Assembly (NCBI GenBank): GCA_963794325.1
Contig: CAWCDG010000004.1
Span: forward strand, 1,248,001-1,312,000
Direction of reading: 5' to 3'
Length of the DNA stretch: 64,000 bases
DNA from: an uncultured delta proteobacterium
GTDB taxonomy: Bacteria > Desulfobacterota > Binatia > Binatales > Binataceae
Below the pieces are notes generated by a model that saw nothing but the letters and a program-made list of their open reading frames with translations, searched no databases and was not told the origin of the DNA. Made by a program: the position numbers and the translations under genes. Shown piece after piece: positions 9-13,674 of this stretch. How positions within the stretch are numbered: the stretch's first letter is position 1; each line of letters begins with the position of its first letter.

Positions 9-421
9 AACCTAACCCCTAACCCCTTCCCGCGCGGGAAGGGGGACCGGATGGAGAACGAAAGCTGTGCATGCGGAGGCGGAATCTTGAATCGCGCGCG
101 AAAAATGCGCGCTGGACAAGGTCCCTCTCCTTAAATCCTCTCCCGACGGGAGAGGGGAAGAAGGATCCGGGATTCTTCGCTTCGCTCTGAATGACACAAG
201 GATAGGAAGCAGAGGGTAAGAACAACCGTAGGCGGAATCTTGAATCGCGCGCGCAGCGCGCGCTGTGTAAGGACCCTCACCTTTGATCCTCTCCCTAACA
301 GGGAGAGGGGAAGAAAGAGTGGCGGACGCGTCGGGGAACCTAACCCCTAACCCCTTCCCGAGCGGGAAGGGGAACCGGATTAGGGGGAGTAACCTTTTCC
401 CAAGTGGGAAGGGGGACCGGA
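9..421. repeat. Cluster of REP-like palindromic repeats (family A hairpins at 9-50, 337-378 and truncated at 391-420; ~90-bp direct repeat at ~77-162 and ~230-315; family C element at 158-196)
   Basis: AACCTAACCCCTAACCCCTTCCC-N4-GGGAAGGGG hairpins; duplicated GGCGGAATCTTGAATCGCGCGCG...CCTCTCCC-N-GGGAGAGGGGAAGAA. Confidence 0.85.
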
Positions 422-1252: not shown

Positions 1253-1903
1253 TCAACTTGGGCGCAGCGATTCACGCATCATTCTAATCATTGCCTGAGT
1301 CGTGGCGGTGTCGTTGAGGCGCGGAAACGGCTCGTCAGGAACGGGGACGTCGAGGAAGCGGCACAGCGGGGCCCATCCTTCGCGCACGTCGAAGACCAGC
1401 AGGCGCGCGGGATCGATCGTATCGCAGACCTCCTGAGTGTGACGAGCGAAGACCTCGAGCGCGTGGGCCTTATCTTCGAAGCGGTTGTCGAATGTTTCAG
1501 CGAGAATCGACTTCCGGGTCATCTCACTTTGGAGGCGGATGATCTCGGGGGAATCGAGGGGCGCCGGCTCGCTCATCGCCTGATAGATAGTGTTGGTCAT
1601 GCTCTTGTACCAGGCTTCCGGATCGCGAACTGATAGCAGTACTTTGGCGTCCGGATAGTGAGCGGCGATTTCGCGCCACCATCGGGCGGTCGGCCAATCG
1701 ACGGTTGCATGGAAGCCGGCGAAGAGCTGATCCCAGTCGATCGGTTGGCCGAATGCCAACCTATGCCACATGGCGACGTGATCGGGTCGCGGGAAGACTT
1801 CCGCCATGTGGTAGCAGGGGCCGAAGCCGAGCTTTTCGAGCGCGGTTTTAAGTGAGAGCGTGCCGGTTCGTCCGAAGCCAGCGCCGACGATTTTCAATGC
1901 CAT
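1253..1903 (-). CDS. Sulfotransferase-family P-loop protein
   Basis: N-terminal VGAGFGRTGTLSLKTALEKLGFGPCYHM; GWAPLCRFL and PFPRLN motifs. Confidence 0.85.
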   Translation of the reverse strand: MALKIVGAGFGRTGTLSLKTALEKLGFGPCYHMAEVFPRPDHVAMWHRLAFGQPIDWDQLFAGFHATVDWPTARWWREIAAHYPDAKVLLSVRDPEAWYKSMTNTIYQAMSEPAPLDSPEIIRLQSEMTRKSILAETFDNRFEDKAHALEVFARHTQEVCDTIDPARLLVFDVREGWAPLCRFLDVPVPDEPFPRLNDTATTQAMIRMMRESLRPS

Positions 1904-2022
1904 GACCTTTCCCCTAGCCCCTCTCCCTTCAAGGAGAGGGAAAACGCGACATCCTAAGTTGAGGGAATAAATTCCGTCCTACGCAGTCTCCAGGCATGGG
2001 CGCGCGACCGCGAGCTGTGACG

Positions 2023-2349
2023 CTACTTCAGCGACGAGAATTTGGTCGGCGTCAGTATCGTAGTGTTGATCGACGCGACTATCGGGCCGCCTTCCTCGCT
2101 CTTGTTGCGTACTGCGATCCATTCCGGATCCGCCTGAAACGCCGCGAATTTCAATTGGCGTTCATCCAGCGAATCCCATTTCAGGATGTAGTAGAGGTCT
2201 GCGTTTGATTCGCCGATCGCTACAGTCCAGAAGCCGACGGGCTCGATGCCATGCTTCTCGAACAGCTTGACGGTAGCGGTCTCGAAGCGGGTCACCACGG
2301 CCGGCAGCTTGCCCGGCATACAATGATAAATTCGCAGTTCGTATAGCAT
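2023..2349 (-). CDS. NIPSNAP family protein
   Basis: MLYELRIY...FEKHGI.PVGFW...FQADPEW pattern. Confidence 0.9.
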   Translation of the reverse strand: MLYELRIYHCMPGKLPAVVTRFETATVKLFEKHGIEPVGFWTVAIGESNADLYYILKWDSLDERQLKFAAFQADPEWIAVRNKSEEGGPIVASINTTILTPTKFSSLK

Positions 2350-2362
2350 CTGAAGATTATGT

Positions 2363-2439
2363 TGGTGGAGCTGACGCGGATCGAACGCGCGACCTCCTGA
2401 ATGCCATTCAGGCGCTCTCCCAAACTGAGCTACAGCCCC
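2363..2439 (-). tRNA. tRNA-Ala(GGC)
   Basis: Reverse complement GGGGCTGTAGCTCAGTTTGGGAGAGCGCCTGAATGGCATTCAGGAGGTCGCGCGTTCGATCCGCGTCAGCTCCACCA: cloverleaf, GGC anticodon, encoded CCA. Confidence 0.97.
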
Positions 2440-2510
2440 ACCGTTGGCAGGTTTTTCAGCTAATCGGATAGCGTCGACGGTGTCAACCGACCGGCGGAAA
2501 GCCGGCTACA

Positions 2511-3056
2511 TCACTTCAGCTTGCTGCGCCATTCGGTCCAATTGACTTTCCGCGATTCGATGACCTCGAGGTCGGCGAGCGCGATTTGATCGGTGAACAG
2601 GATCAGGTTGTCACATGACCAGCGAGCGTTCGGGGCGATGATACTGTCGAAGCCGAGGAAATAAGCGGCGTCGCCGATTGCCTGAGTCTGCTCATAGAGG
2701 ATCTCGCGATATCGGGCGGGGTCGACGCCAAGCGGAACCATCGCGTCTAAATTCGGAAGCCTGAGAGTCTTCGCAGTCCTGACCTTGATGCGATGTAATC
2801 CATACCTGATTTTCGACGGAAAGACCGGCTGACGTGAGAGATGAAATTGGACTTCCGCAACGGCGCCATCTGGATCCAGAGAAGTATAGAGTACGTCGAA
2901 CAGCGTGGGATCCCAGCGTCCGCCGGAAACGCTTCCCTGCAGAGGATCCCGACCGTCGCGCACGGTCCGCCAAGTCTCTCCAGCGTAAGGAACTCTATCG
3001 AAGGCGTCGAGCGCGTCGAGCAGTGCGGGATCGCGCGGCTTGCGTGCTCGCGGCAT
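2511..3056 (-). CDS. RES domain toxin (MbcT/ParT-like)
   Basis: WR...GGRW...VLYTS...AVAEV...TQAIG...GFDSIIAP.AR...NLILF pattern; directly downstream of a cognate antitoxin. Confidence 0.85.
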   Translation of the reverse strand: MPRARKPRDPALLDALDAFDRVPYAGETWRTVRDGRDPLQGSVSGGRWDPTLFDVLYTSLDPDGAVAEVQFHLSRQPVFPSKIRYGLHRIKVRTAKTLRLPNLDAMVPLGVDPARYREILYEQTQAIGDAAYFLGFDSIIAPNARWSCDNLILFTDQIALADLEVIESRKVNWTEWRSKLK

Positions 3057-3076
3057 CGCAGCTCAAGCCGCGGCAA

Positions 3077-3415
3077 TCATAGGTAGGCGCCGGCGTCCAG
3101 GCGCTCGATGACGGCCAGGACTTCCTGGGTGCGGTCGGCGATGATCACGTCGATCGCGCGCTCGTTGTTAAGCAGCGGATGTTTCGCATGAAGCCATAGC
3201 CGGGTCTCCGCTGGCGTGTAGAAGTCTGACAATCGATCGACGACGTAGCGCAGATCGGCAATGATGGTCTGGGTCGCGAGCGGCGGCGAGGCTTTACCGC
3301 TCTTCCATCGCGACACACTCGGTCGGGACGCATTGACGATGTTAGCGACGTCGGAGCCCTTGAGGCCGCCACGCTGCTCGAGGTCGTTAAGAATTCGGGC
3401 TACTGCGCTCTTCAT
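3077..3415 (-). CDS. Xre/MbcA/ParS-type antitoxin
   Basis: N-terminal HTH (DVANIVNASRPSVSRWKSG) and C-terminal WL..HPLL..RAID domain. Confidence 0.85.
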   Translation of the reverse strand: MKSAVARILNDLEQRGGLKGSDVANIVNASRPSVSRWKSGKASPPLATQTIIADLRYVVDRLSDFYTPAETRLWLHAKHPLLNNERAIDVIIADRTQEVLAVIERLDAGAYL

Positions 3416-8705: not shown

Positions 8706-8911
8706 TTTAGTACCAATCGCAAAATGGTGCGGACGCCATTTTGCTCCGTGTGTCATTTAGAGCGAAGCGAAGAATCCGGCAGTTTATACTTTATGTAACT
8801 TCGGGATCGCTCTTGTAGGTTCGAGGTTAGGTTGCGTAAAGTATATACTCGCGAACGAAATCATTAAGGCTCCTGCCTGCTTGGTGGCACCGCGCCCTAG
8901 CGGAACGGACA

Positions 8912-9571
8912 TTACAGCGTTGCGTACTGACGTGGTTCGCTCGATCTTCGGGACTGATAGCGCCAGATCCATGCATCGAAGTCGCGGCGATTCAGCCCCA
9001 GTAAATCTGCCGCCCAAGACACTGCTGCTTGAATGTAATCATACTCGAGGATCCCCACCCCGGCATCTCGCGTAAACGTCCTTATATGTCTATCTACCGC
9101 AATACGATCAATGCCCACTAAGCAGCACATATAGTCGTAGGTCTTCGGCCCGACGCCTGATAGGCTCAGAAGCTGGTCCTTGGACCGCCTGTGCTTAAGC
9201 CACTGGCGAAGGTCGTTGGTGTCTTCCACGGAGTTTGCGCCGAGGAGAGAGGCGAGTCGCGTGAACCGTGAGACCTTTGTCGGGTGCTTCCATAGTAAAA
9301 AATCAGACACTAATCCCCTCTCGATTATCGAATTCACCCCCGAAAGCCTCGCCGCTTGTGGGTAATTTGTCTGTATGCGGGCGATCCGCGGTCTAATCAC
9401 CGTGCGATAATTTAGGCCCGCCTGTAGAACAGCGTCGGCCAACACGGCACCTAAGTGGCTTGCAGTTGGTCGCGGCGGAGTCGGTTTCACAACAATGCCT
9501 AAGCGCTCAGCGTGAGCAGCGACCTTACGGGCGGATGCGAGTACTTCCAGAGGGGCAGCTGACGGTGTCAT
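8912..9571 (-). CDS. HhH-superfamily DNA glycosylase/AP lyase-like protein
   Basis: HhH motif LLSLSGVGPKTYDY followed by AVDRH (catalytic Asp position); no FeS cysteine cluster. Confidence 0.7.
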   Translation of the reverse strand: MTPSAAPLEVLASARKVAAHAERLGIVVKPTPPRPTASHLGAVLADAVLQAGLNYRTVIRPRIARIQTNYPQAARLSGVNSIIERGLVSDFLLWKHPTKVSRFTRLASLLGANSVEDTNDLRQWLKHRRSKDQLLSLSGVGPKTYDYMCCLVGIDRIAVDRHIRTFTRDAGVGILEYDYIQAAVSWAADLLGLNRRDFDAWIWRYQSRRSSEPRQYATL

Positions 9572-10197
9572 ACAGACCGTCTGGTCATGTCAATCGCCAT
9601 GAGGCGTTCTACGCAGTTGGGACAGGCCCCGCAAGGCGTATCGCTCAGCAGTTGACATGAATAGGTTGATCCAATTGGGACCCGTAGGCGTTCGGCCTCC
9701 CTCACCACCTGCGCTTTTGACCAATTGCGGAACGGAATCTGGAACTTGACTGGTCCGACATCGGCAGCCAAGCTGTCGAGCTGGTTCAGAAATGTCGCCG
9801 AACAATCAATCTCTTTCGCGTGGTTACTATTTATGAAGCCACTGTAGACCTCGGTCAGGCCCCGCGTTTGGGCGCAGGAGGCGCCAGCCGAAAAGAACAG
9901 TAGGGTCCGGTATGGAACGTAAAGGTCCTCGTCCTCAACACGCTCACTCCAAAGGTCCGGCTCCCGAATAAGCCTTGAGCGAGAGCCTCTAAATATGCCG
10001 GAAATGTCAATCCTAGTGGGTGATGACAAGCCGCGATCTTTGGGAAGCACCTTCCGAACAGTGGCCCATTCCTTCTCAACGCAGTGTTGACCATAGTCGA
10101 AGAATACGGGTACGACCCCGATCTCACGCTCGCGAAGCCAATAGGCGACTGTGGTCGAATCCAGCCCGCCGGAGCATAGAAGTAGTACCTCAGGCAT
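9568..10197 (-). CDS. QueC-family PP-loop ATPase (7-cyano-7-deazaguanine synthase-like)
   Basis: LLCSGGLDS PP-loop, FDYGQ, YVPYR, Zn site TYSC-x7-CGACPNC..R; no queD, queE or folE alongside. Confidence 0.9.
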   Translation of the reverse strand: MPEVLLLCSGGLDSTTVAYWLREREIGVVPVFFDYGQHCVEKEWATVRKVLPKDRGLSSPTRIDISGIFRGSRSRLIREPDLWSERVEDEDLYVPYRTLLFFSAGASCAQTRGLTEVYSGFINSNHAKEIDCSATFLNQLDSLAADVGPVKFQIPFRNWSKAQVVREAERLRVPIGSTYSCQLLSDTPCGACPNCVERLMAIDMTRRSV

Positions 10198-11525
10198 TAG
10201 TTCCCTCTCCTTTCGCCAAGCAGATAGAAAACGGCATTGAGGCAGGAGTCCAGGTCGCGAGAATAATGGGCGGAACCCGCCATGACCATGGTGTTAGCAT
10301 TCTCGCCCATAGGGTCGAAAACCACCACCGGGATTCTGGACTGGATGGCCAGGCCGATCTCAACCAGCGTTCCCGGATCACGCGCGCTCGGAACAGCAAA
10401 GACGAGCTGACAATGTATTAGAAGATCGATGTCTGCCTGGTAGGTTCCCTGCAGCGTAGCAGCGTCAGAGCTAGGTGGCAGCTCGCCGTTCTCTACTATT
10501 GGCCGACGGACGCGGAAATTGTGGTATTGCAGTGAAGCCAATACCCGGTCGATGGCCGCTCGCTCGGCTCCAGCGAAATCTGGCGCAGCGAGGTAGATTG
10601 ACAGCTCCTGCCGTCGCTCCCAAGGCAGGGACGCTCCCCAAAGACCTCTCATCTCCTCGAGAGAAAGCTTAAGGTCCCGTTGCACATACGTCTTGAAGAG
10701 ATCGGGGTAGGTTGTCTGCGAATAAGCGGAGCTCGCGTAAGTCGCTCGCCAGCCGGCCTCAGCAATTCCTTTGCCGAGATGGACTACATAGGCCGCTGCA
10801 AATACGTCACCAACGCCTACCGAGTTCTCGGTTGTTCCGAGCTGCGCCGGCAGTGCCTCAACTTCGCCGCTTGAGACAGATACTAACCTGGAGCCGCCTC
10901 GATTTTCTTTCAGAATCACGGTTGAGGGATTGCTGCTCGAAAACGCCCTTACTACACCCATGATCCCGCCCCCTTGGATCGATCTAAATAGTTCGGAAGA
11001 CGTGGAGATAAGAACAGTCTCCACCAATTGCGGCAGGCCAGCGATTTCGACCGGATCCCTGATGTCGTATGCCGCGTCCACATGAACGCGAGCGTTTTGA
11101 GGTAAGAGCGTACTGGCCTCTTTCAAGCTGTAAGTGCCGGGAAATAGCAGGATTTCACTGCCAGCTGTGCTCTCTACCCGCGTTCTCGAAAGTCGGACGG
11201 TCTTCTCGTCCCGCAGCAAGGTTTCGTACCCTTGGTCTGCTACCTCCGTGGGATCAAAGATTACCGTTAGATTGGGGGCTCCCTTGACGATGCCGAGGAT
11301 GTGGAAATCGACGCATCCGAGCGCCTTAAAGTATTTGTTCGCTGAGTCGACCAAGTACTCTGGCAGGATCAGGGCGGCCCTGAAGGGGGCACCAAGAGCC
11401 CAGAACCCACGGGCCGCGTGTGCAACCCCGCCCAATCTTAGCTTGTTTTCCGTCCCGGACGCCGTAACAGTGAAGTCTACAAAGAGTTCGCCGACCAGGA
11501 GCGGGGCGCTTTCCGAGGCGGTCAT
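10197..11525 (-). CDS. PfkB-family kinase fused to a C-terminal nucleoside 2-deoxyribosyltransferase/nucleotide N-hydrolase domain
   Basis: VGELFVD...LGG at N-terminus; NSVGVGDVFAAAY anion hole; C-terminal IYLAAPDF...D..LL..C...DPGTLVEIGLA. Confidence 0.8.
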   Translation of the reverse strand: MTASESAPLLVGELFVDFTVTASGTENKLRLGGVAHAARGFWALGAPFRAALILPEYLVDSANKYFKALGCVDFHILGIVKGAPNLTVIFDPTEVADQGYETLLRDEKTVRLSRTRVESTAGSEILLFPGTYSLKEASTLLPQNARVHVDAAYDIRDPVEIAGLPQLVETVLISTSSELFRSIQGGGIMGVVRAFSSSNPSTVILKENRGGSRLVSVSSGEVEALPAQLGTTENSVGVGDVFAAAYVVHLGKGIAEAGWRATYASSAYSQTTYPDLFKTYVQRDLKLSLEEMRGLWGASLPWERRQELSIYLAAPDFAGAERAAIDRVLASLQYHNFRVRRPIVENGELPPSSDAATLQGTYQADIDLLIHCQLVFAVPSARDPGTLVEIGLAIQSRIPVVVFDPMGENANTMVMAGSAHYSRDLDSCLNAVFYLLGERRGN

Positions 11526-11914
11526 GGGCGATCTGGCACAAAATCAGCCCTCACGGACGCAAGTGGCGGGCCTGCCGTCCTAGCCGTCACACGACCTGGG
11601 TAAGTCCACCCATCTTGTAAGCAGGAAGCTAGATAGTTAAATGCCGTAGGGATGTTTCCTACGCTCTCACCGTTGACGGTCTCAGCTACCAGACGCTTCC
11701 TCAGCCGGATCCGGAGTTGCTCTCCGACTGGAGGCGGTGCACCGTGCGCCGCGTAGTAGTCAGAGTGTTCAATGTCCTCGAGGGACGTGCTCAAAGCCCG
11801 CCCACAACGATCCGATGGCGGGCTGCCGCCGCCCCCCTTGGGTCCGCCACCGCTCTTGTCCGTTTTAGAAGAGCCCGGATAGTCACTGATTCTGCCAGGA
11901 CCGCTGCTACCCAT
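11522..11914 (-). CDS. Small protein with Gly/Ser-rich N-terminal tail (MGSSG) and a putative HIRAN-like beta domain
   Basis: AGAGGGGG RBS; stop overlaps the next ATG; C-terminal VGEQLRI...GESVGNIP...YLASCL.DG..Y.GRV resembles HIRAN (by eye). Confidence 0.65.
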   Translation of the reverse strand: MGSSGPGRISDYPGSSKTDKSGGGPKGGGGSPPSDRCGRALSTSLEDIEHSDYYAAHGAPPPVGEQLRIRLRKRLVAETVNGESVGNIPTAFNYLASCLQDGWTYPGRVTARTAGPPLASVRADFVPDRP

Positions 11915-12200
11915 TGAAGTTCCCCCTCTCTAGCTATCCGTTTGCTAACGCTTCCCACCGGTCGCAGAACTCCGAAGGAGCGTAAGGTAAAGACAATATC
12001 AACCCCCGAGCTACACTAGTCCGTTCGGCGCGTCTCGAACAATCAAATCGGGAGCATATACCTTGAGCAACCTAACCTCGAACCAATAAGTCCCGATCCC
12101 GAAGTTGCGTAAAGCATATACTCCCCGAAGAATCCCGGATCCTTCTTTGCGTCTCCGGCCGACGCGCGTCTGCGCGCGGCGGGTGAGAGATCAAATTTCG

Positions 12201-13674
12201 CTAGTAGGACTTCGCGAAGATACGCGCGCTCGGTGGCGGGTTCGCCGCAGGCCAGGCATTTGCCGGCGACGCCGTCGTTGGTGAGCGGGATCGCGCGGCA
12301 AGTCGCCTTGGTTTCTTCGCGAATTTTCGTCTCGCACGCTGGATTTCCGCACCAGTAGATGTCGGCGAATCCGCCGCCGCCCTCGCCTTCCATATGCTTA
12401 CGAAAGACCGCGTAGTCGTCGAACTTTCGTGTGTTCGCGACCATCGCGACCTTCGCCTGCGCGTAGAGATTTTTTTGAATCTCGGCGAGCAGCGCGACGA
12501 CGGTCTCCGCGATCGTTGCGAGCGACGCCTTGGTTTTCGATTCCGGTCCCGACTTGTCGCGCCGCGCGAGCACCGCTTCACCTGACGCGACATCGCGCGG
12601 TCCGATCTCGATTCGCACCGGGACGCCGCGCATCTCCCAGTCGTTGAACTTGAAGCCCGGCGTCATGCCCTCGCGCTCGTCGATGCGCGCGCGTATGTTC
12701 GCCTTCATCAGAGCTTCCAACGCGGCACGCGCCGCCGCCAGCACGGTCGCGCCTTCCTCGGGTTTGCGGAAGATCGGCACGATGACCGCCTGCGTTGAGG
12801 CGACGGTCGGCGGTAGGCGCAGTCCCTGGTCGTCGCCGTGCGCCATTACGATTGCGCCGAGCAGGCGGGTCGATACGCCCCAACTCGTCTGCCACACGAA
12901 TTGCATCTGATTCTGATCGTCGAGGTAGCGGATCTCGAACGGCTTCGCGAAATTCTGGCCGAGAAAATGCGAAGTGCCGCATTGCAGCGCGCGCCCGTCG
13001 CCCATCAGCCCTTCAATTGAGTACGTCTCGACGGCACCAGGGAATCGTTCGGCAGCGCTTTTGCGTCCGACGATCAGCGGAATCGCGAGAAAGTCCTCGA
13101 CGAATTGACGGTACACTTCGAGCATCCCGAGCGTTTCGCTTTGCGCTTCCTCGGCCGTCGCGTGCGCGGTATGGCCTTCCTGCCAGAGGAACTCGGTGGT
13201 GCGCAGGAACATGCGGGTGCGCATTTCCCATCGGACGACGTTGCACCATTGATTGACCATCATCGGTAAGTCGCGATGCGATCGAATCCATTGCGCGAAC
13301 ATGTGATTGATGATCGTCTCGGAGGTCGGGCGCACGATTAGCGGCTCTTCGAGCTCCTTGCCGCCGCCGTGGGTGACGACCGCCAGTTCGGGCGCGAAGC
13401 CCTCGACGTGTTGCGCTTCCTTTTCCAGGAAGCTTTGCGGGATGAACAGCGGGAAGTAGGCGTTGCGCGCGCCGGTCTTCTTGATGCGGCGGTCGAGCTC
13501 GTCGCGCAGCGCCTCCCAAATCGCAAAACCGTCGGGGCGAAACACGATGCATCCGCGCACCGGCGAGTAGTCTGCCAGCTCCGCGCGCAGGCAGATGTCG
13601 TTGTACCACGCGGCGAAATCCTCGCTGCGCGGCGTTACCTTCTTTTCGTTCTGCTTATTTGGTTTGTCAGCCAT
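12201..13674 (-). CDS. proS: Proline-tRNA ligase, eukaryote/archaea type (apparent +1 frameshift near the C-terminus)
   Basis: RPTSET, QWCNVVRWE, FLRTTEFLWQEGHT, QTSWGVSTR; canonical FAKSY-stop end lies one base out of frame at ~12219-12222. Confidence 0.93.

What the first reader, a model, noticed from the sequence alone, without database searches (positions are those of the whole stretch)
8768..12135. Transposase-less cassette with long terminal inverted repeats and a target duplication, inserted into a dispersed repeat
Seen: the left end GGCAGTTTATACTTTATGTAACTTCGGGATCG...GGTTCGAGGTTAGGTTGC is the imperfect inverse of the right end GCAACCTAACCTCGAACC...CGATCCCGAAGTTGCGTAAAGCATATACTCCC. CGAAGAATCC flanks both ends as a direct repeat (10 bp, or 8 bp if the ends are drawn one base wider). 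Removing the cassette rebuilds TGTCATT(T/C)AGAGCGAAGCGAAGAATCCCGGATCCTTCTT, which exists intact at 158-196 on the - strand. No recombinase is encoded. Inference: a non-autonomous mobile insertion cassette moved in trans by an IS transposase, giving a precise delivery route for the operon.
Basis: partly seen in the sequence, partly recalled or inferred. Interest (0 to 1): 0.78.

Follow-up and report, generated by a model that had tools for sequence, protein, structure and literature searches.

The report
Transposase-less IS1595-type gene cassette
A 3.35-kb block of four foreign genes sits between two housekeeping genes, carried by the worn ends of a jumping gene whose intact relatives live in sister species; it is a clear but fairly ordinary example of how bacteria pick up new gene sets.

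Summary
Window 8777-12126 is a cassette with about 78-bp imperfect terminal inverted repeats (63 of 79 aligned columns identical; 0 of 3000 control pairs scored as high). It is flanked by a perfect direct repeat and splits one copy of a REP-like repeat that has 34 uninterrupted copies in the genome.

The missing partner was found. The 22-bp termini belong to an IS1595-family group present in 24 of 46 congeners. Full elements there encode DDE_Tnp_IS1595 transposases. Nine of 13 complete elements have perfect 8-bp duplications in a fixed register, and several hit the same REP position. The family therefore favours the 8-bp reading, GAAGAATC.

Each cassette end holds two inverted termini around a 31-32-bp spacer. 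The cassette therefore looks like a composite bounded by two mini-MITEs.

No cognate transposase or further terminus lies in the 85%-complete assembly, so the cassette is probably stranded.

The cargo gene was not found in 164 other genomes of the order. It belongs to a conserved four-gene module: a small Met-Gly protein, a PfkB/NDT fusion, a QueC-like enzyme and an HhH-GPD glycosylase fold.

The parts
8750..8776 (.). Left half of the interrupted REP-like dispersed repeat (TGTCATTTAGAGCGAAGCGAAGAATC)
   Evidence: Matches the left part of the 34 uninterrupted genome copies and the intact copy at window 158-196 (-).
8769..8776 (.). Left copy of the target-site duplication GAAGAATC (the 10-bp reading CGAAGAATCC is 8768-8777)
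   Evidence: The 8-bp register is the one that gives perfect duplications in 9 of 13 complete family elements.
8777..8799 (+). Outer left terminus (C-GGCAGTTTATACTTTATGTAAC), degenerate
   Evidence: 16 of 23 positions match the genus consensus terminus. Not detected by the nhmmer profile of family ends.
8800..8830 (.). 31-bp spacer of the left end; contains CGGGATCG and the 18-mer core GGTTCGAGGTTAGGTTGC (8818-8835)
   Evidence: Similar CGGGAT-type subterminal repeats occur in family elements.
8831..8853 (-). Inner left terminus (reads C-GCGAGTATATACTTTACGCAAC on the - strand)
   Evidence: 19 of 23 vs consensus; nhmmer E 3.8e-4; 2 mismatches to the outer right terminus.
8912..9571 (-). Cargo gene 4: 219-aa HhH-GPD DNA-glycosylase-fold protein
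   Evidence: Weak Pfam HHH match. AF2 model pLDDT 89. Best fold match is H. pylori MagIII 1pu6, TM 0.67, then EndoIII, OGG and MutY. G139, G141-P-K-T and D160 are invariant in 32 sequences.
9568..10197 (-). Cargo gene 3: 209-aa QueC-like ATP-dependent enzyme (SGGLDS loop, four C-terminal Cys)
   Evidence: PF06508 1.6e-30. Below the TIGR00364 cut-off (93.5 vs 150.3 bits), so not a canonical QueC.
10197..11525 (-). Cargo gene 2: 442-aa PfkB-like kinase domain fused to a nucleoside 2-deoxyribosyltransferase domain
   Evidence: PF05014 7.8e-13 and weak PF00294. PDB NDT matches at residues 309-403. 1060 homologues, 56-81% identical among the 119 other proteins listed.
11522..11914 (-). Cargo gene 1: 130-aa protein of no known family, with a conserved N-terminal Met-Gly motif and a Gly-rich linker
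   Evidence: No Pfam, PADLOC or NCBIfam match. Syntenic homologues in 5 metagenome loci and 2 plasmids. MGS.GSG..DY.GS is present in all of them.
12049..12071 (+). Inner right terminus (C-GGGAGCATATACCTTGAGCAAC)
   Evidence: Begins with the family's CGGGAG. My hand count gives 16 of 23 vs consensus; the figure printed was taken one base out of register. Weak nhmmer match, E 0.24.
12072..12103 (.). 32-bp spacer of the right end, the inverse of the left spacer
12104..12126 (-). Outer right terminus (reads G-GGGAGTATATGCTTTACGCAAC on the - strand)
   Evidence: 18 of 23 vs consensus; nhmmer E 7.2e-4.
12127..12134 (.). Right copy of the target-site duplication GAAGAATC (the 10-bp reading is 12126-12135)
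12127..12150 (.). Right half of the interrupted REP-like repeat (GAAGAATCCCGGATCCTTCTTTGC)
   Evidence: Continues the consensus of the 34 genome copies.
158..196 (-). Intact paralogous copy of the target repeat in the same window

Best explanation
Window 8777-12126 is a non-autonomous derivative of an IS1595-family insertion sequence, that is, a mobile insertion cassette.

Mechanism: a DDE transposase of the IS1595 family, supplied in trans, bound the outer 22-23-bp termini. It inserted the 3350-bp segment at a staggered 8-bp cut (GAAGAATC) inside a REP-like repeat in the trpS-proS spacer. Gap repair produced the flanking duplication.

Structure: each end consists of two inverted termini around a 31-32-bp spacer. 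The cassette is therefore best read as a composite bounded by two inverted copies of a ~77-bp mini-MITE, moved through its outermost termini.

Cargo: a foreign, horizontally spread four-gene operon. It encodes a small protein with a conserved N-terminal Met-Gly, a PfkB/NDT fusion, a QueC-like ligase and an HhH-GPD glycosylase-fold protein. Its function is untested. My best guess is a nucleobase-protein conjugation or defence-type module.

Current state: the assembly holds no transposase with matching ends, and the ends are diverged. The cassette is probably stranded now.

Shown: ends, duplication, interrupted repeat, cognate autonomous elements in congeners, absence from relatives, foreign cargo.
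Inferred: mobilisation in trans, the composite origin, the cargo function.
For: Ends and duplication.

Interrupted repeat: the same repeat has 34 uninterrupted copies in the genome.

Terminus family: the motif occurs in 25 of 47 genus genomes including this one, with 0 hits to the reversed control pattern. In a phylum-wide draw it occurs in 4 of 401 genomes.

Complete elements in congeners:
- Six (L071-L075, L082) encode PF12762 + PF12760 transposases; the one tested (L074) matches NF033547.
- One 777-bp element keeps only a transposase C-terminal remnant.
- L079 has no transposase and carries a NYN/HEC-09 gene.
- MITEs of 45, 218, 229 and 345 bp also occur.

Duplications: perfect 8-bp duplication in a fixed register in 9 of 13 complete elements, plus the window. 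A further 2 are perfect after a 1-nt shift, and 1 is 7 of 8.

Shared target: the same REP position abuts termini in G001, G005, G011, G048 and G051.

Literature: an IS1595-family member makes A/T-rich 8-bp direct repeats (PMC12561309, passages).

Absence from relatives: the cassette is missing from the conserved trpS-proS locus in 19 of 19 congeners. There is no DNA match in 40 relatives beyond two 31-nt matches (E ~8e-4), one to the inner-left terminus region and one inside the cargo.

Foreign cargo: the 442-aa gene is in 0 of 164 other genomes of the order, and only 2 of 400 in the phylum draw, at 34-37% identity. Homologues of 56-81% identity carry names such as Mesorhizobium, Bradyrhizobium, Methylocella and Terracidiphilus.

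Composition: G+C is 0.51-0.60 in the cassette against about 0.60-0.65 in the flanks.
Against: - No orthologous empty site with the REP copy was found. Public contigs do not bridge either junction or an empty site.
- No cognate transposase and no further terminus lie in the 85%-complete assembly. Its one intact IS1595 transposase is only 41% identical to the group's, and no matching ends were seen beside it.
- The outer left terminus is poor: 16 of 23 positions, missed by the profile.
- Under the 8-bp model the right terminal base is C where the family has G.
- No solo copy of the 77-bp end unit exists in this genome or in 46 congeners. The 18-mer core is not in 185,579 species genomes except 2 chance hits. 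This weakens the two-MITE reading.
- The same operon elsewhere (L034, L035) has no such repeats.
Confidence: 0.82

Rival explanations
1. A single mobile insertion cassette, not a composite. The inner inverted copies of the terminus are part of unusually structured ends (extra transposase-binding sites or hairpins), and no free-standing 77-bp MITE ever existed.
For: No solo copy of the 77-bp unit in the genome, in 46 congeners or, for its 18-mer core, in the species-genome collection. The spacers of the two ends are conserved, as expected for a functional end.
Against: None of the other complete family elements has an inner inverted terminus at <=4 mismatches; only L077, a bare pair of abutted termini, shows two together. 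Both inner copies start with the family's terminal CG(G/C)GAG. Mini-elements made of little more than two termini exist: 45 bp in G022, 218 bp in G012.
Confidence: 0.3
2. Site-specific integration through a 10-bp core (CGAAGAATCC) by an integrase or other recombinase encoded elsewhere. The direct repeat would then be an att core rather than a target duplication.
For: The 10-bp repeat is perfect, and the same REP position is used in several genomes.
Against: No recombinase lies in or beside the cassette. Family elements with the same termini carry 8-bp duplications of at least eight different sequences. That is the signature of DDE transposition, not of a fixed core. The elements encode IS1595 transposases.
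Confidence: 0.03
3. The block is ancestral and was deleted in the relatives, or the operon was resident and two MITEs landed on either side of it.
For: No orthologous empty REP site was found.
Against: The two outer flanks join into one REP copy with a single GAAGAATC, like the 34 intact copies. The cargo gene was not found in 164 other genomes of the order. G+C is lower than in the flanks.
Confidence: 0.03
4. Assembly artefact: the cassette was joined into this contig wrongly in a metagenome assembly.
For: The genome is 85% complete in 10 contigs. It carries at least one probable single-base indel, in proS. No public contig bridges either junction.
Against: A chimeric join would not create a perfect duplication that splits a repeat exactly at the family's preferred target. 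Cassette fragments occur with 0 differences in two runs that also hold the flanks (table 8, X2 and X3).
Confidence: 0.03

Closest known systems
Mobile insertion cassettes (MIC231 of IS231, IS4 family, Bacillus cereus)
   Same: IS-type terminal inverted repeats around passenger genes, no transposase, a target duplication, and a cognate autonomous IS in related strains. MICs are defined as non-autonomous elements that a cognate transposase can activate (PMC3129680 and PMC3281130, passages).
   Different: A different IS family: IS1595, with an 8-bp duplication. The 10-12 bp of IS231 is recalled, not from a call. The ends here are double termini. Trans-mobilisation was shown experimentally for MIC231 (recalled) but not here.
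IS1595-family transporter ISs and ISApl4
   Same: The cognate elements carry the DDE_Tnp_IS1595 + Zn-ribbon transposase, make 8-bp A/T-rich duplications, and hold passenger genes inside the IS. IS1595-type ISs with passenger genes ('transporter ISs') are cited in PMC3129680. ISApl4 makes 8-bp A/T-rich repeats (PMC12561309).
   Different: The window's element has lost, or never had, the transposase. The group transposases are at most 42% identical to any on 72,556 plasmids. The original IS1595 paper (Siguier 2009) was not readable here and is known only from reference lists.
Transposon-like restriction-modification units with long imperfect inverted repeats and 8-bp duplications (Furuta, Abe, Kobayashi 2010, PMC2853133)
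   Same: A compact gene unit without a transposase. In X. oryzae it has 65-bp inverted repeats (60/65 identical) and an 8-bp target duplication, and the repeats are unique in the genome. The authors allow a transposase acting in trans (passages).
   Different: Their cargo is R-M genes and no cognate IS was identified. Here the cognate IS family is identified and the cargo is a QueC-like operon.
MITE-bounded composite structures (TIME-COMPs; 439-bp MITE pair around an integron in Acinetobacter)
   Same: Two copies of a miniature non-autonomous element bracket cargo and move as a unit with a transposase from elsewhere (PMC13367494 and PMC3934969; abstract starts in the listing only).
   Different: Those MITEs derive from Tn3-family or other elements and occur as solo copies. 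Here the units are 77 bp, of IS1595 type, and have no solo copies.
QatBC and Cap9 protein-deazaguanylation systems; QueC 'Cluster 4' (PMC13329287)
   Same: A QueC-fold enzyme with the SGGxDS loop sits beside a small partner with an N-terminal glycine. Cluster 4 QueC proteins co-occur (~89%) with a PF00294-PF05014 protein, as here (section 8 read in full; passages).
   Different: There is no QatA ATPase, QatD TatD or CD-NTase. PADLOC matches only its generic QueC model. The C-terminal Cys motif here is C(x)7CxxCxxC, not the CH(x)5CxxCxGCxK given for Cluster 4. The paper proposes purine salvage for that cluster.

Membership tests
IS1595 family (as a non-autonomous derivative) | DDE transposase with IS1595 catalytic domain and N-terminal zinc ribbon | tested here: not met
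   None in the cassette. Present in cognate elements of congeners (PF12762 + PF12760; NF033547 for L074, 175 bits vs cut-off 75).
IS1595 family (as a non-autonomous derivative) | Terminal inverted repeats shared with autonomous members | tested here: met
   The four termini match the genus consensus at 16-19 of 23 positions (the inner right one by hand count). Two are found by the end profile at E 4e-4 and 7e-4. The 19-mer taken from the cassette retrieves the family in 24 of 46 congeners, with 0 control hits.
IS1595 family (as a non-autonomous derivative) | 8-bp target-site duplication | tested here: met
   GAAGAATC on both sides. The same register gives 8/8 in 9 of 13 complete family elements. 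The 8-bp figure for the family comes from PMC12561309.
Mobile insertion cassette (MIC) | IS ends around passenger genes, with no transposase | tested here: met
Mobile insertion cassette (MIC) | Mobilised in trans by the cognate transposase | not testable with these tools
   Inferred from the duplication and from the absence in relatives. No cognate transposase lies in this assembly.
MITE-bounded composite transposon | Each boundary is a complete miniature element with its own two termini | tested here: met
   8777-8853 and 12049-12126 each hold two inverted termini.
MITE-bounded composite transposon | The same MITE occurs as solo copies | tested here: not met
   0 in the own genome, 0 in 46 congeners, and the core 18-mer is absent from the species-genome collection apart from 2 chance hits.
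Qat defence system (cargo) | QatA ATPase, QatB, QatC and QatD TatD nuclease together | tested here: not met
   PADLOC matches only the model named QueC for the 209-aa protein and nothing for the other three. No ATPase or TatD lies in the cassette.
QueC family Cluster 4 of PMC13329287 (cargo) | SGGxDS loop, about 10 residues shorter than QueC, PF00294-PF05014 neighbour, CH(x)5CxxCxGCxK signature | tested here: inconclusive
   The first three features are met. The Cys signature differs (CQLLSDTPCGACPNC).
HhH-GPD DNA glycosylase superfamily (cargo gene 4) | HhH hairpin followed about 20 residues later by a conserved Asp, on the two-domain helical fold | tested here: met
   Fold matches to MagIII, EndoIII, OGG and MutY. 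G139, G141-P-K-T and D160 are invariant. The spacing rule is recalled knowledge. Activity is untested.

The most novel reading that the evidence does not exclude
The cargo is an undescribed nucleobase-protein conjugation system of the QatBC/Cap9 type. The QueC-like ligase would attach a 7-deazaguanine-type base to the conserved N-terminal glycine of the 130-aa protein. The NDT/PfkB fusion and the HhH-GPD glycosylase would then exchange or graft that base into nucleotides or DNA, giving phage defence or a similar conflict function. The genus-specific IS1595 group would act as a shuttle that parks such defence cargo in REP repeats as harmless landing sites.
Probability: 0.25. Interest if true: 0.7.

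Novelty: new member of a known kind. Interest (0 to 1): 0.42.

Why it matters
The cassette gives a concrete, datable route by which a foreign four-gene operon entered an uncultured soil lineage. The 442-aa gene was not found in 164 other genomes of the order.

It also documents a whole IS1595 series in one genus: autonomous IS, IS with passenger genes, transposase-less cassette and MITEs. All use the same termini and share a preference for one position in a REP-like repeat.

The passengers are largely defence-type genes: methyltransferase-Mrr fusions, HNH, NYN/HEC-09, and a SmaI-type restriction enzyme beside a lone terminus. This supports the view that small ISs shuttle defence genes, and it flags the QueC-like operon as a candidate worth testing.

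For annotation, it shows that a 'hypothetical' operon between two aminoacyl-tRNA synthetase genes is a mobile insertion.

Tried and rejected
1. Exact scan of 185,579 species genomes for the 18-mer core of the ends. It gave 2 hits, both without neighbouring motifs, so they are chance.

2. Metagenome scan with the 442-aa protein. It returned only 6 loci, the best 66-67% identical. None showed comparable inverted repeats where flanks were available (L034, L035).

3. Empty-site test in public reads. Four soil runs were laid, all as short Logan contigs, and no contig bridges 8777, 12126 or an empty trpS-proS site. The one 'joint', 8776->12157 in X5, has a 27-letter side and 36 other letters between, and reads like another REP copy. 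I do not count it. Parts without cover say nothing.

4. Own-genome partner. There is one intact IS1595 transposase (C4:1741837-1742712, 41% identical to the group's) and two degraded ones. No matching termini were seen around them.

5. The G020:C209 match was first taken as possible chance. It is a true family terminus, but no second end was found.

6. The sigma-70 promoter scan of the cassette gave 0 sites, so no promoter is proposed.

7. The small protein has no family. An Atlas lead to HIRAN scored 0.83, below the tool's own line, and was not used.

8. Plasmid search for the cargo. The same four-gene order occurs on plasmids of Cupriavidus necator and Neotabrizicola shimadae at 48-49% identity, without IS1595 ends being annotated. 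I did not scan those loci for repeats.

Supplementary tables of PMC13329287, which may list this protein's cluster, were not available.

Full report
THE OBSERVATION

CGAAGAATCC lies at 8768-8777 and again at 12126-12135. Between the two copies the left ~78 bases are the imperfect inverse of the right ~78.

The repeat finder reports two arm pairs of 35 and 43 nt at 83-84% complementarity. A global alignment of 8777-8854 with the reverse complement of 12048-12126 has 63 identical of 79 columns. None of 3000 random pairs from the window at the same spacing reached its score: 46, against a control mean of -8.8 and a maximum of 35.

The cassette splits a dispersed repeat. The 26-mer that spans the rebuilt junction is intact at window 163-188 on the minus strand. 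It occurs 34 times at up to 4 mismatches in the 4.45-Mb genome, always uninterrupted. Several copies have the same left-hand neighbour sequence as at this site.

The flanking genes are trpS and proS.

The four ORFs inside contain no recombinase domain. There is no transposase remnant.

ANATOMY OF THE ENDS

Each end is more than a simple inverted repeat. It holds two copies of a 22-23-bp terminus in inverted orientation around a 31-32-bp spacer:
- left end: 8777-8799 and 8831-8853
- right end: 12049-12071 and 12104-12126

All four copies begin C/G-G(G/C)(G/C)AG. The two spacers are inverses of each other. The whole is therefore [terminus-spacer-terminus] cargo [terminus-spacer-terminus], with the two 77-78-bp units inverted relative to each other.

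THE PARTNER FAMILY

The own genome has no further copy of the terminus at up to 4 mismatches, and none of the whole end.

A 31-nt match in a congener (G020) led me to search the genus with a 19-mer from the cassette. Twenty-four of 46 other genus genomes have it at up to 2 mismatches, and the reversed control pattern has none. Several genomes have an outward-facing pair on one contig.

After fetching these, the termini align to a consensus C-GGGAGTATGTACTTRACGCAA.

Six complete elements of 2.2-5.7 kb encode proteins with the DDE_Tnp_IS1595 and Zn_ribbon_IS1595 domains. The one tested against NCBIfam (L074) matches NF033547.

Others are derivatives:
- a 777-bp element keeps only the last 48 residues of the transposase
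- L079 (2.2 kb) has no transposase and carries a NYN protein that matches PADLOC HEC-09 at 5e-42
- MITE-sized elements of 45, 218, 229 and 345 bp occur

Passenger genes in the autonomous elements are mostly methyltransferase-Mrr fusions that match PADLOC type II/III methyltransferase models, plus an HNH protein.

In a draw of 401 genomes across the phylum the terminus occurs in 4: one congener, one other genus of the family, and two genomes of one distant genus. The transposases are at most 42% identical to anything on 72,556 plasmids, where the matches are annotated as IS1595 family transposases.

TARGET DUPLICATION AND TARGET CHOICE

I took the element to start one base before GGGAG. In that register, 9 of 13 complete elements from other genomes have a perfect 8-bp duplication. 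Of the other four:
- two are perfect after a one-base shift
- one has 7 of 8
- one, the 45-bp back-to-back pair, has none

The duplicated sequences differ and are A/T-rich for a ~60% G+C genome: GAGCAATT, AATAAATT, AATTGTTC, AAAAGATC, GAAGTTTC, CTCGCGAG, TTAAAAAA.

In the same register the window gives GAAGAATC on both sides. The right terminal base is then C where the family has G.

The elements in G005 and G001 sit at exactly the same position of the same REP-like repeat (GAAGAATC/GATTCTTC). Single termini in G011, G048 and G051 abut the same REP position, and one in G008 abuts the same 8-mer (44 distinct termini listed).

An IS1595-family member studied experimentally, ISApl4, makes A/T-rich 8-bp direct repeats (PMC12561309, passages).

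INSERTION RATHER THAN LOSS

trpS and proS are neighbours in all 19 congeners whose locus I examined. The spacer is 6 to 779 bp and filled with various repeats. None holds the cassette or its ends.

The whole cassette finds no DNA match in 40 relatives. The only hits are two 31-nt matches at E ~8e-4, one to the inner-left terminus region in G020 and one inside the cargo in a genome of another family.

None of the 19 has the REP copy at this place, so there is no orthologous empty site. The evidence for the empty site is paralogous: the 34 intact copies.

Public soil-metagenome contigs hold cassette pieces with no differences in two runs that also hold the flanks. Nothing bridges a junction or an empty site.

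G+C is 0.51-0.60 inside the cassette against about 0.60-0.65 outside.

THE CARGO

The four genes overlap or abut on the minus strand.

The 442-aa protein has a nucleoside 2-deoxyribosyltransferase domain and a weak PfkB match. It has 1060 homologues. The 119 other proteins listed are 56-81% identical, and the named ones come from Mesorhizobium, Bradyrhizobium, Methylocella, Rhodopseudomonas, Terracidiphilus and Desulfovibrio.

This gene was not found in 120 family genomes or in 164 other genomes of the order, which include all 46 congeners. In the phylum draw it appears in 2 of 400 genomes, at 34-37% identity.

The same four-gene order recurs in metagenome loci L034 and L035. It also recurs on plasmids of Cupriavidus necator and Neotabrizicola shimadae, beside helicase-methyltransferase, toprim, AAA ATPase and nuclease genes. 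L034 and L035 have no comparable inverted repeats.

The 209-aa protein is QueC-like but scores below the QueC equivalog cut-off. A 2026 survey of the QueC family describes a 'Cluster 4' that is about 10 residues shorter than QueC and sits beside a PF00294-PF05014 protein in ~89% of neighbourhoods. It assigns no tested function (PMC13329287, section 8 read in full). The Cys signature here differs from the one quoted there, so membership is open.

The 219-aa protein folds (pLDDT 89) like the HhH-GPD glycosylases. The best match is MagIII (TM 0.67), followed by EndoIII, OGG and MutY.

The 130-aa protein has no family. All 8 homologues examined begin MGS.GSG..DY.GS, followed by a Gly-rich linker.

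The same survey reports that QatC and Cap9, both QueC-like enzymes of defence systems, attach a deazaguanine to the N-terminal glycine of a partner protein (passages).

A complex prediction of the QueC-like protein with the 130-aa protein scored 0.82, against a best control of 0.00:
- That mark was reached by 58 of 80 solved complexes and 2 of 110 mismatched pairs.
- The three runs agree in at least 91% of contacts, and the partner's pLDDT is at least 83.
- My own shallow alignments were used, so those counts hold only roughly.
- The interface includes partner residues 5-15 and the Cys-rich C-terminus of the enzyme.
- A QatC structure exists (cited in the survey), so the pass may reflect likeness to a solved complex.
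This supports binding and does not show it.

HOW IT MOST LIKELY WORKS

An IS1595-family DDE transposase from an element of this genus-level group bound the outer termini and inserted the segment at an 8-bp staggered cut in a REP repeat. The group often uses this site.

The double termini suggest that the cargo was first bracketed by two copies of a ~77-bp mini-MITE and then moved as a composite. This is analogous to TIME-COMPs and to the MITE-flanked integron of Acinetobacter (abstract starts only). The inner flanks, AACGAAAT and AATCAAAT, are A/T-rich 8-mers like the family's targets. That fits the composite reading but proves nothing. The lack of any solo unit counts against it.

The two ends differ at 20% of aligned columns, the outer left terminus is poor, and no cognate transposase lies in the assembly. 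I therefore expect the cassette to be immobile at present.

COMPARISON AND VERDICT

Transposase-less cassettes with IS ends (MICs), IS1595 elements with passenger genes, and compact R-M units with 65-bp imperfect repeats and 8-bp duplications are all in print. This is a new member of a known kind. Its local points of interest are the double termini, the REP targeting, the complete autonomous-to-MITE series in one genus, and an uncharacterised QueC-like cargo.

Limits:
- No experimental mobilisation.
- No orthologous empty site.
- ISfinder was not available.
- Supplements were closed.
- Genomes G019 and G024 are unpublished and enter only the counts.

Noticed in passing
window 12201-12225 (proS 3' end): proS carries one extra base near 12220-12221 relative to 8 of 8 congeners aligned. 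They end ...ERAYFAKSY*, with the stop corresponding to 12201-12203. Here the frame runs on for 53 more codons, through the REP half and into the cassette's right end, to 12043. One contig of run X2 lacks that base (table 4). This is probably an assembly indel, and it warns that single-base gaps in this assembly, including the one in the end alignment, may be errors.
   Followed up: partly
L040 (G020:C209) 1715-3231: A SmaI-type restriction enzyme (PF17411, 4.7e-11) and a 240-aa ORF that I judged methyltransferase-like from a DPPH motif (no Pfam family matched it) lie between an HtrA-like and a PBP1A-like gene. A single family terminus at 3203-3231 faces outward, and no second end was found. 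This may be a one-ended or decayed cassette with R-M cargo.
   Followed up: partly
window 8818-8835 and 12067-12084: The 18-mer core of the spacers (GGTTCGAGGTTAGGTTGC) differs by 2 bases from an abundant host repeat, GGTTAGGGGTTAGGTTGC. There are 134 genome hits at <=3 mismatches, nearly all to that repeat (the window itself starts with a copy). In congeners the end unit's weak matches also fall on that repeat. This is either chance or a sign that part of the end derives from host repeat DNA.
   Followed up: no
L077 (G022:C6) 1972-2016: Two family termini lie back to back with one base between them, forming a 45-bp palindrome, and no matching 8-bp duplication (5 of 8). This is the smallest derivative seen.
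   Followed up: no
trpS-proS spacer in L009-L027: The spacer between two conserved convergent synthetase genes ranges from 6 to 779 bp among 19 congeners. It holds different REP-like hairpins, and in L023 and L024 it holds extra coding-looking sequence. It is a hotspot for small insertions.
   Followed up: no
L041, L072, L081, L045: Four termini in G042 (two), G008 and G023 share nearly the same 27-nt outer flank (aaccactac.gatggtat.aattgctc). This is either a second repeated target or an inherited insertion.
   Followed up: no
G000:C3:115469-116304 and C2:510492-510943: Two degraded IS1595-family transposase genes (frameshifted or carrying a TGA) lie in the own genome, besides one intact copy at C4:1741837-1742712.
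   Followed up: partly
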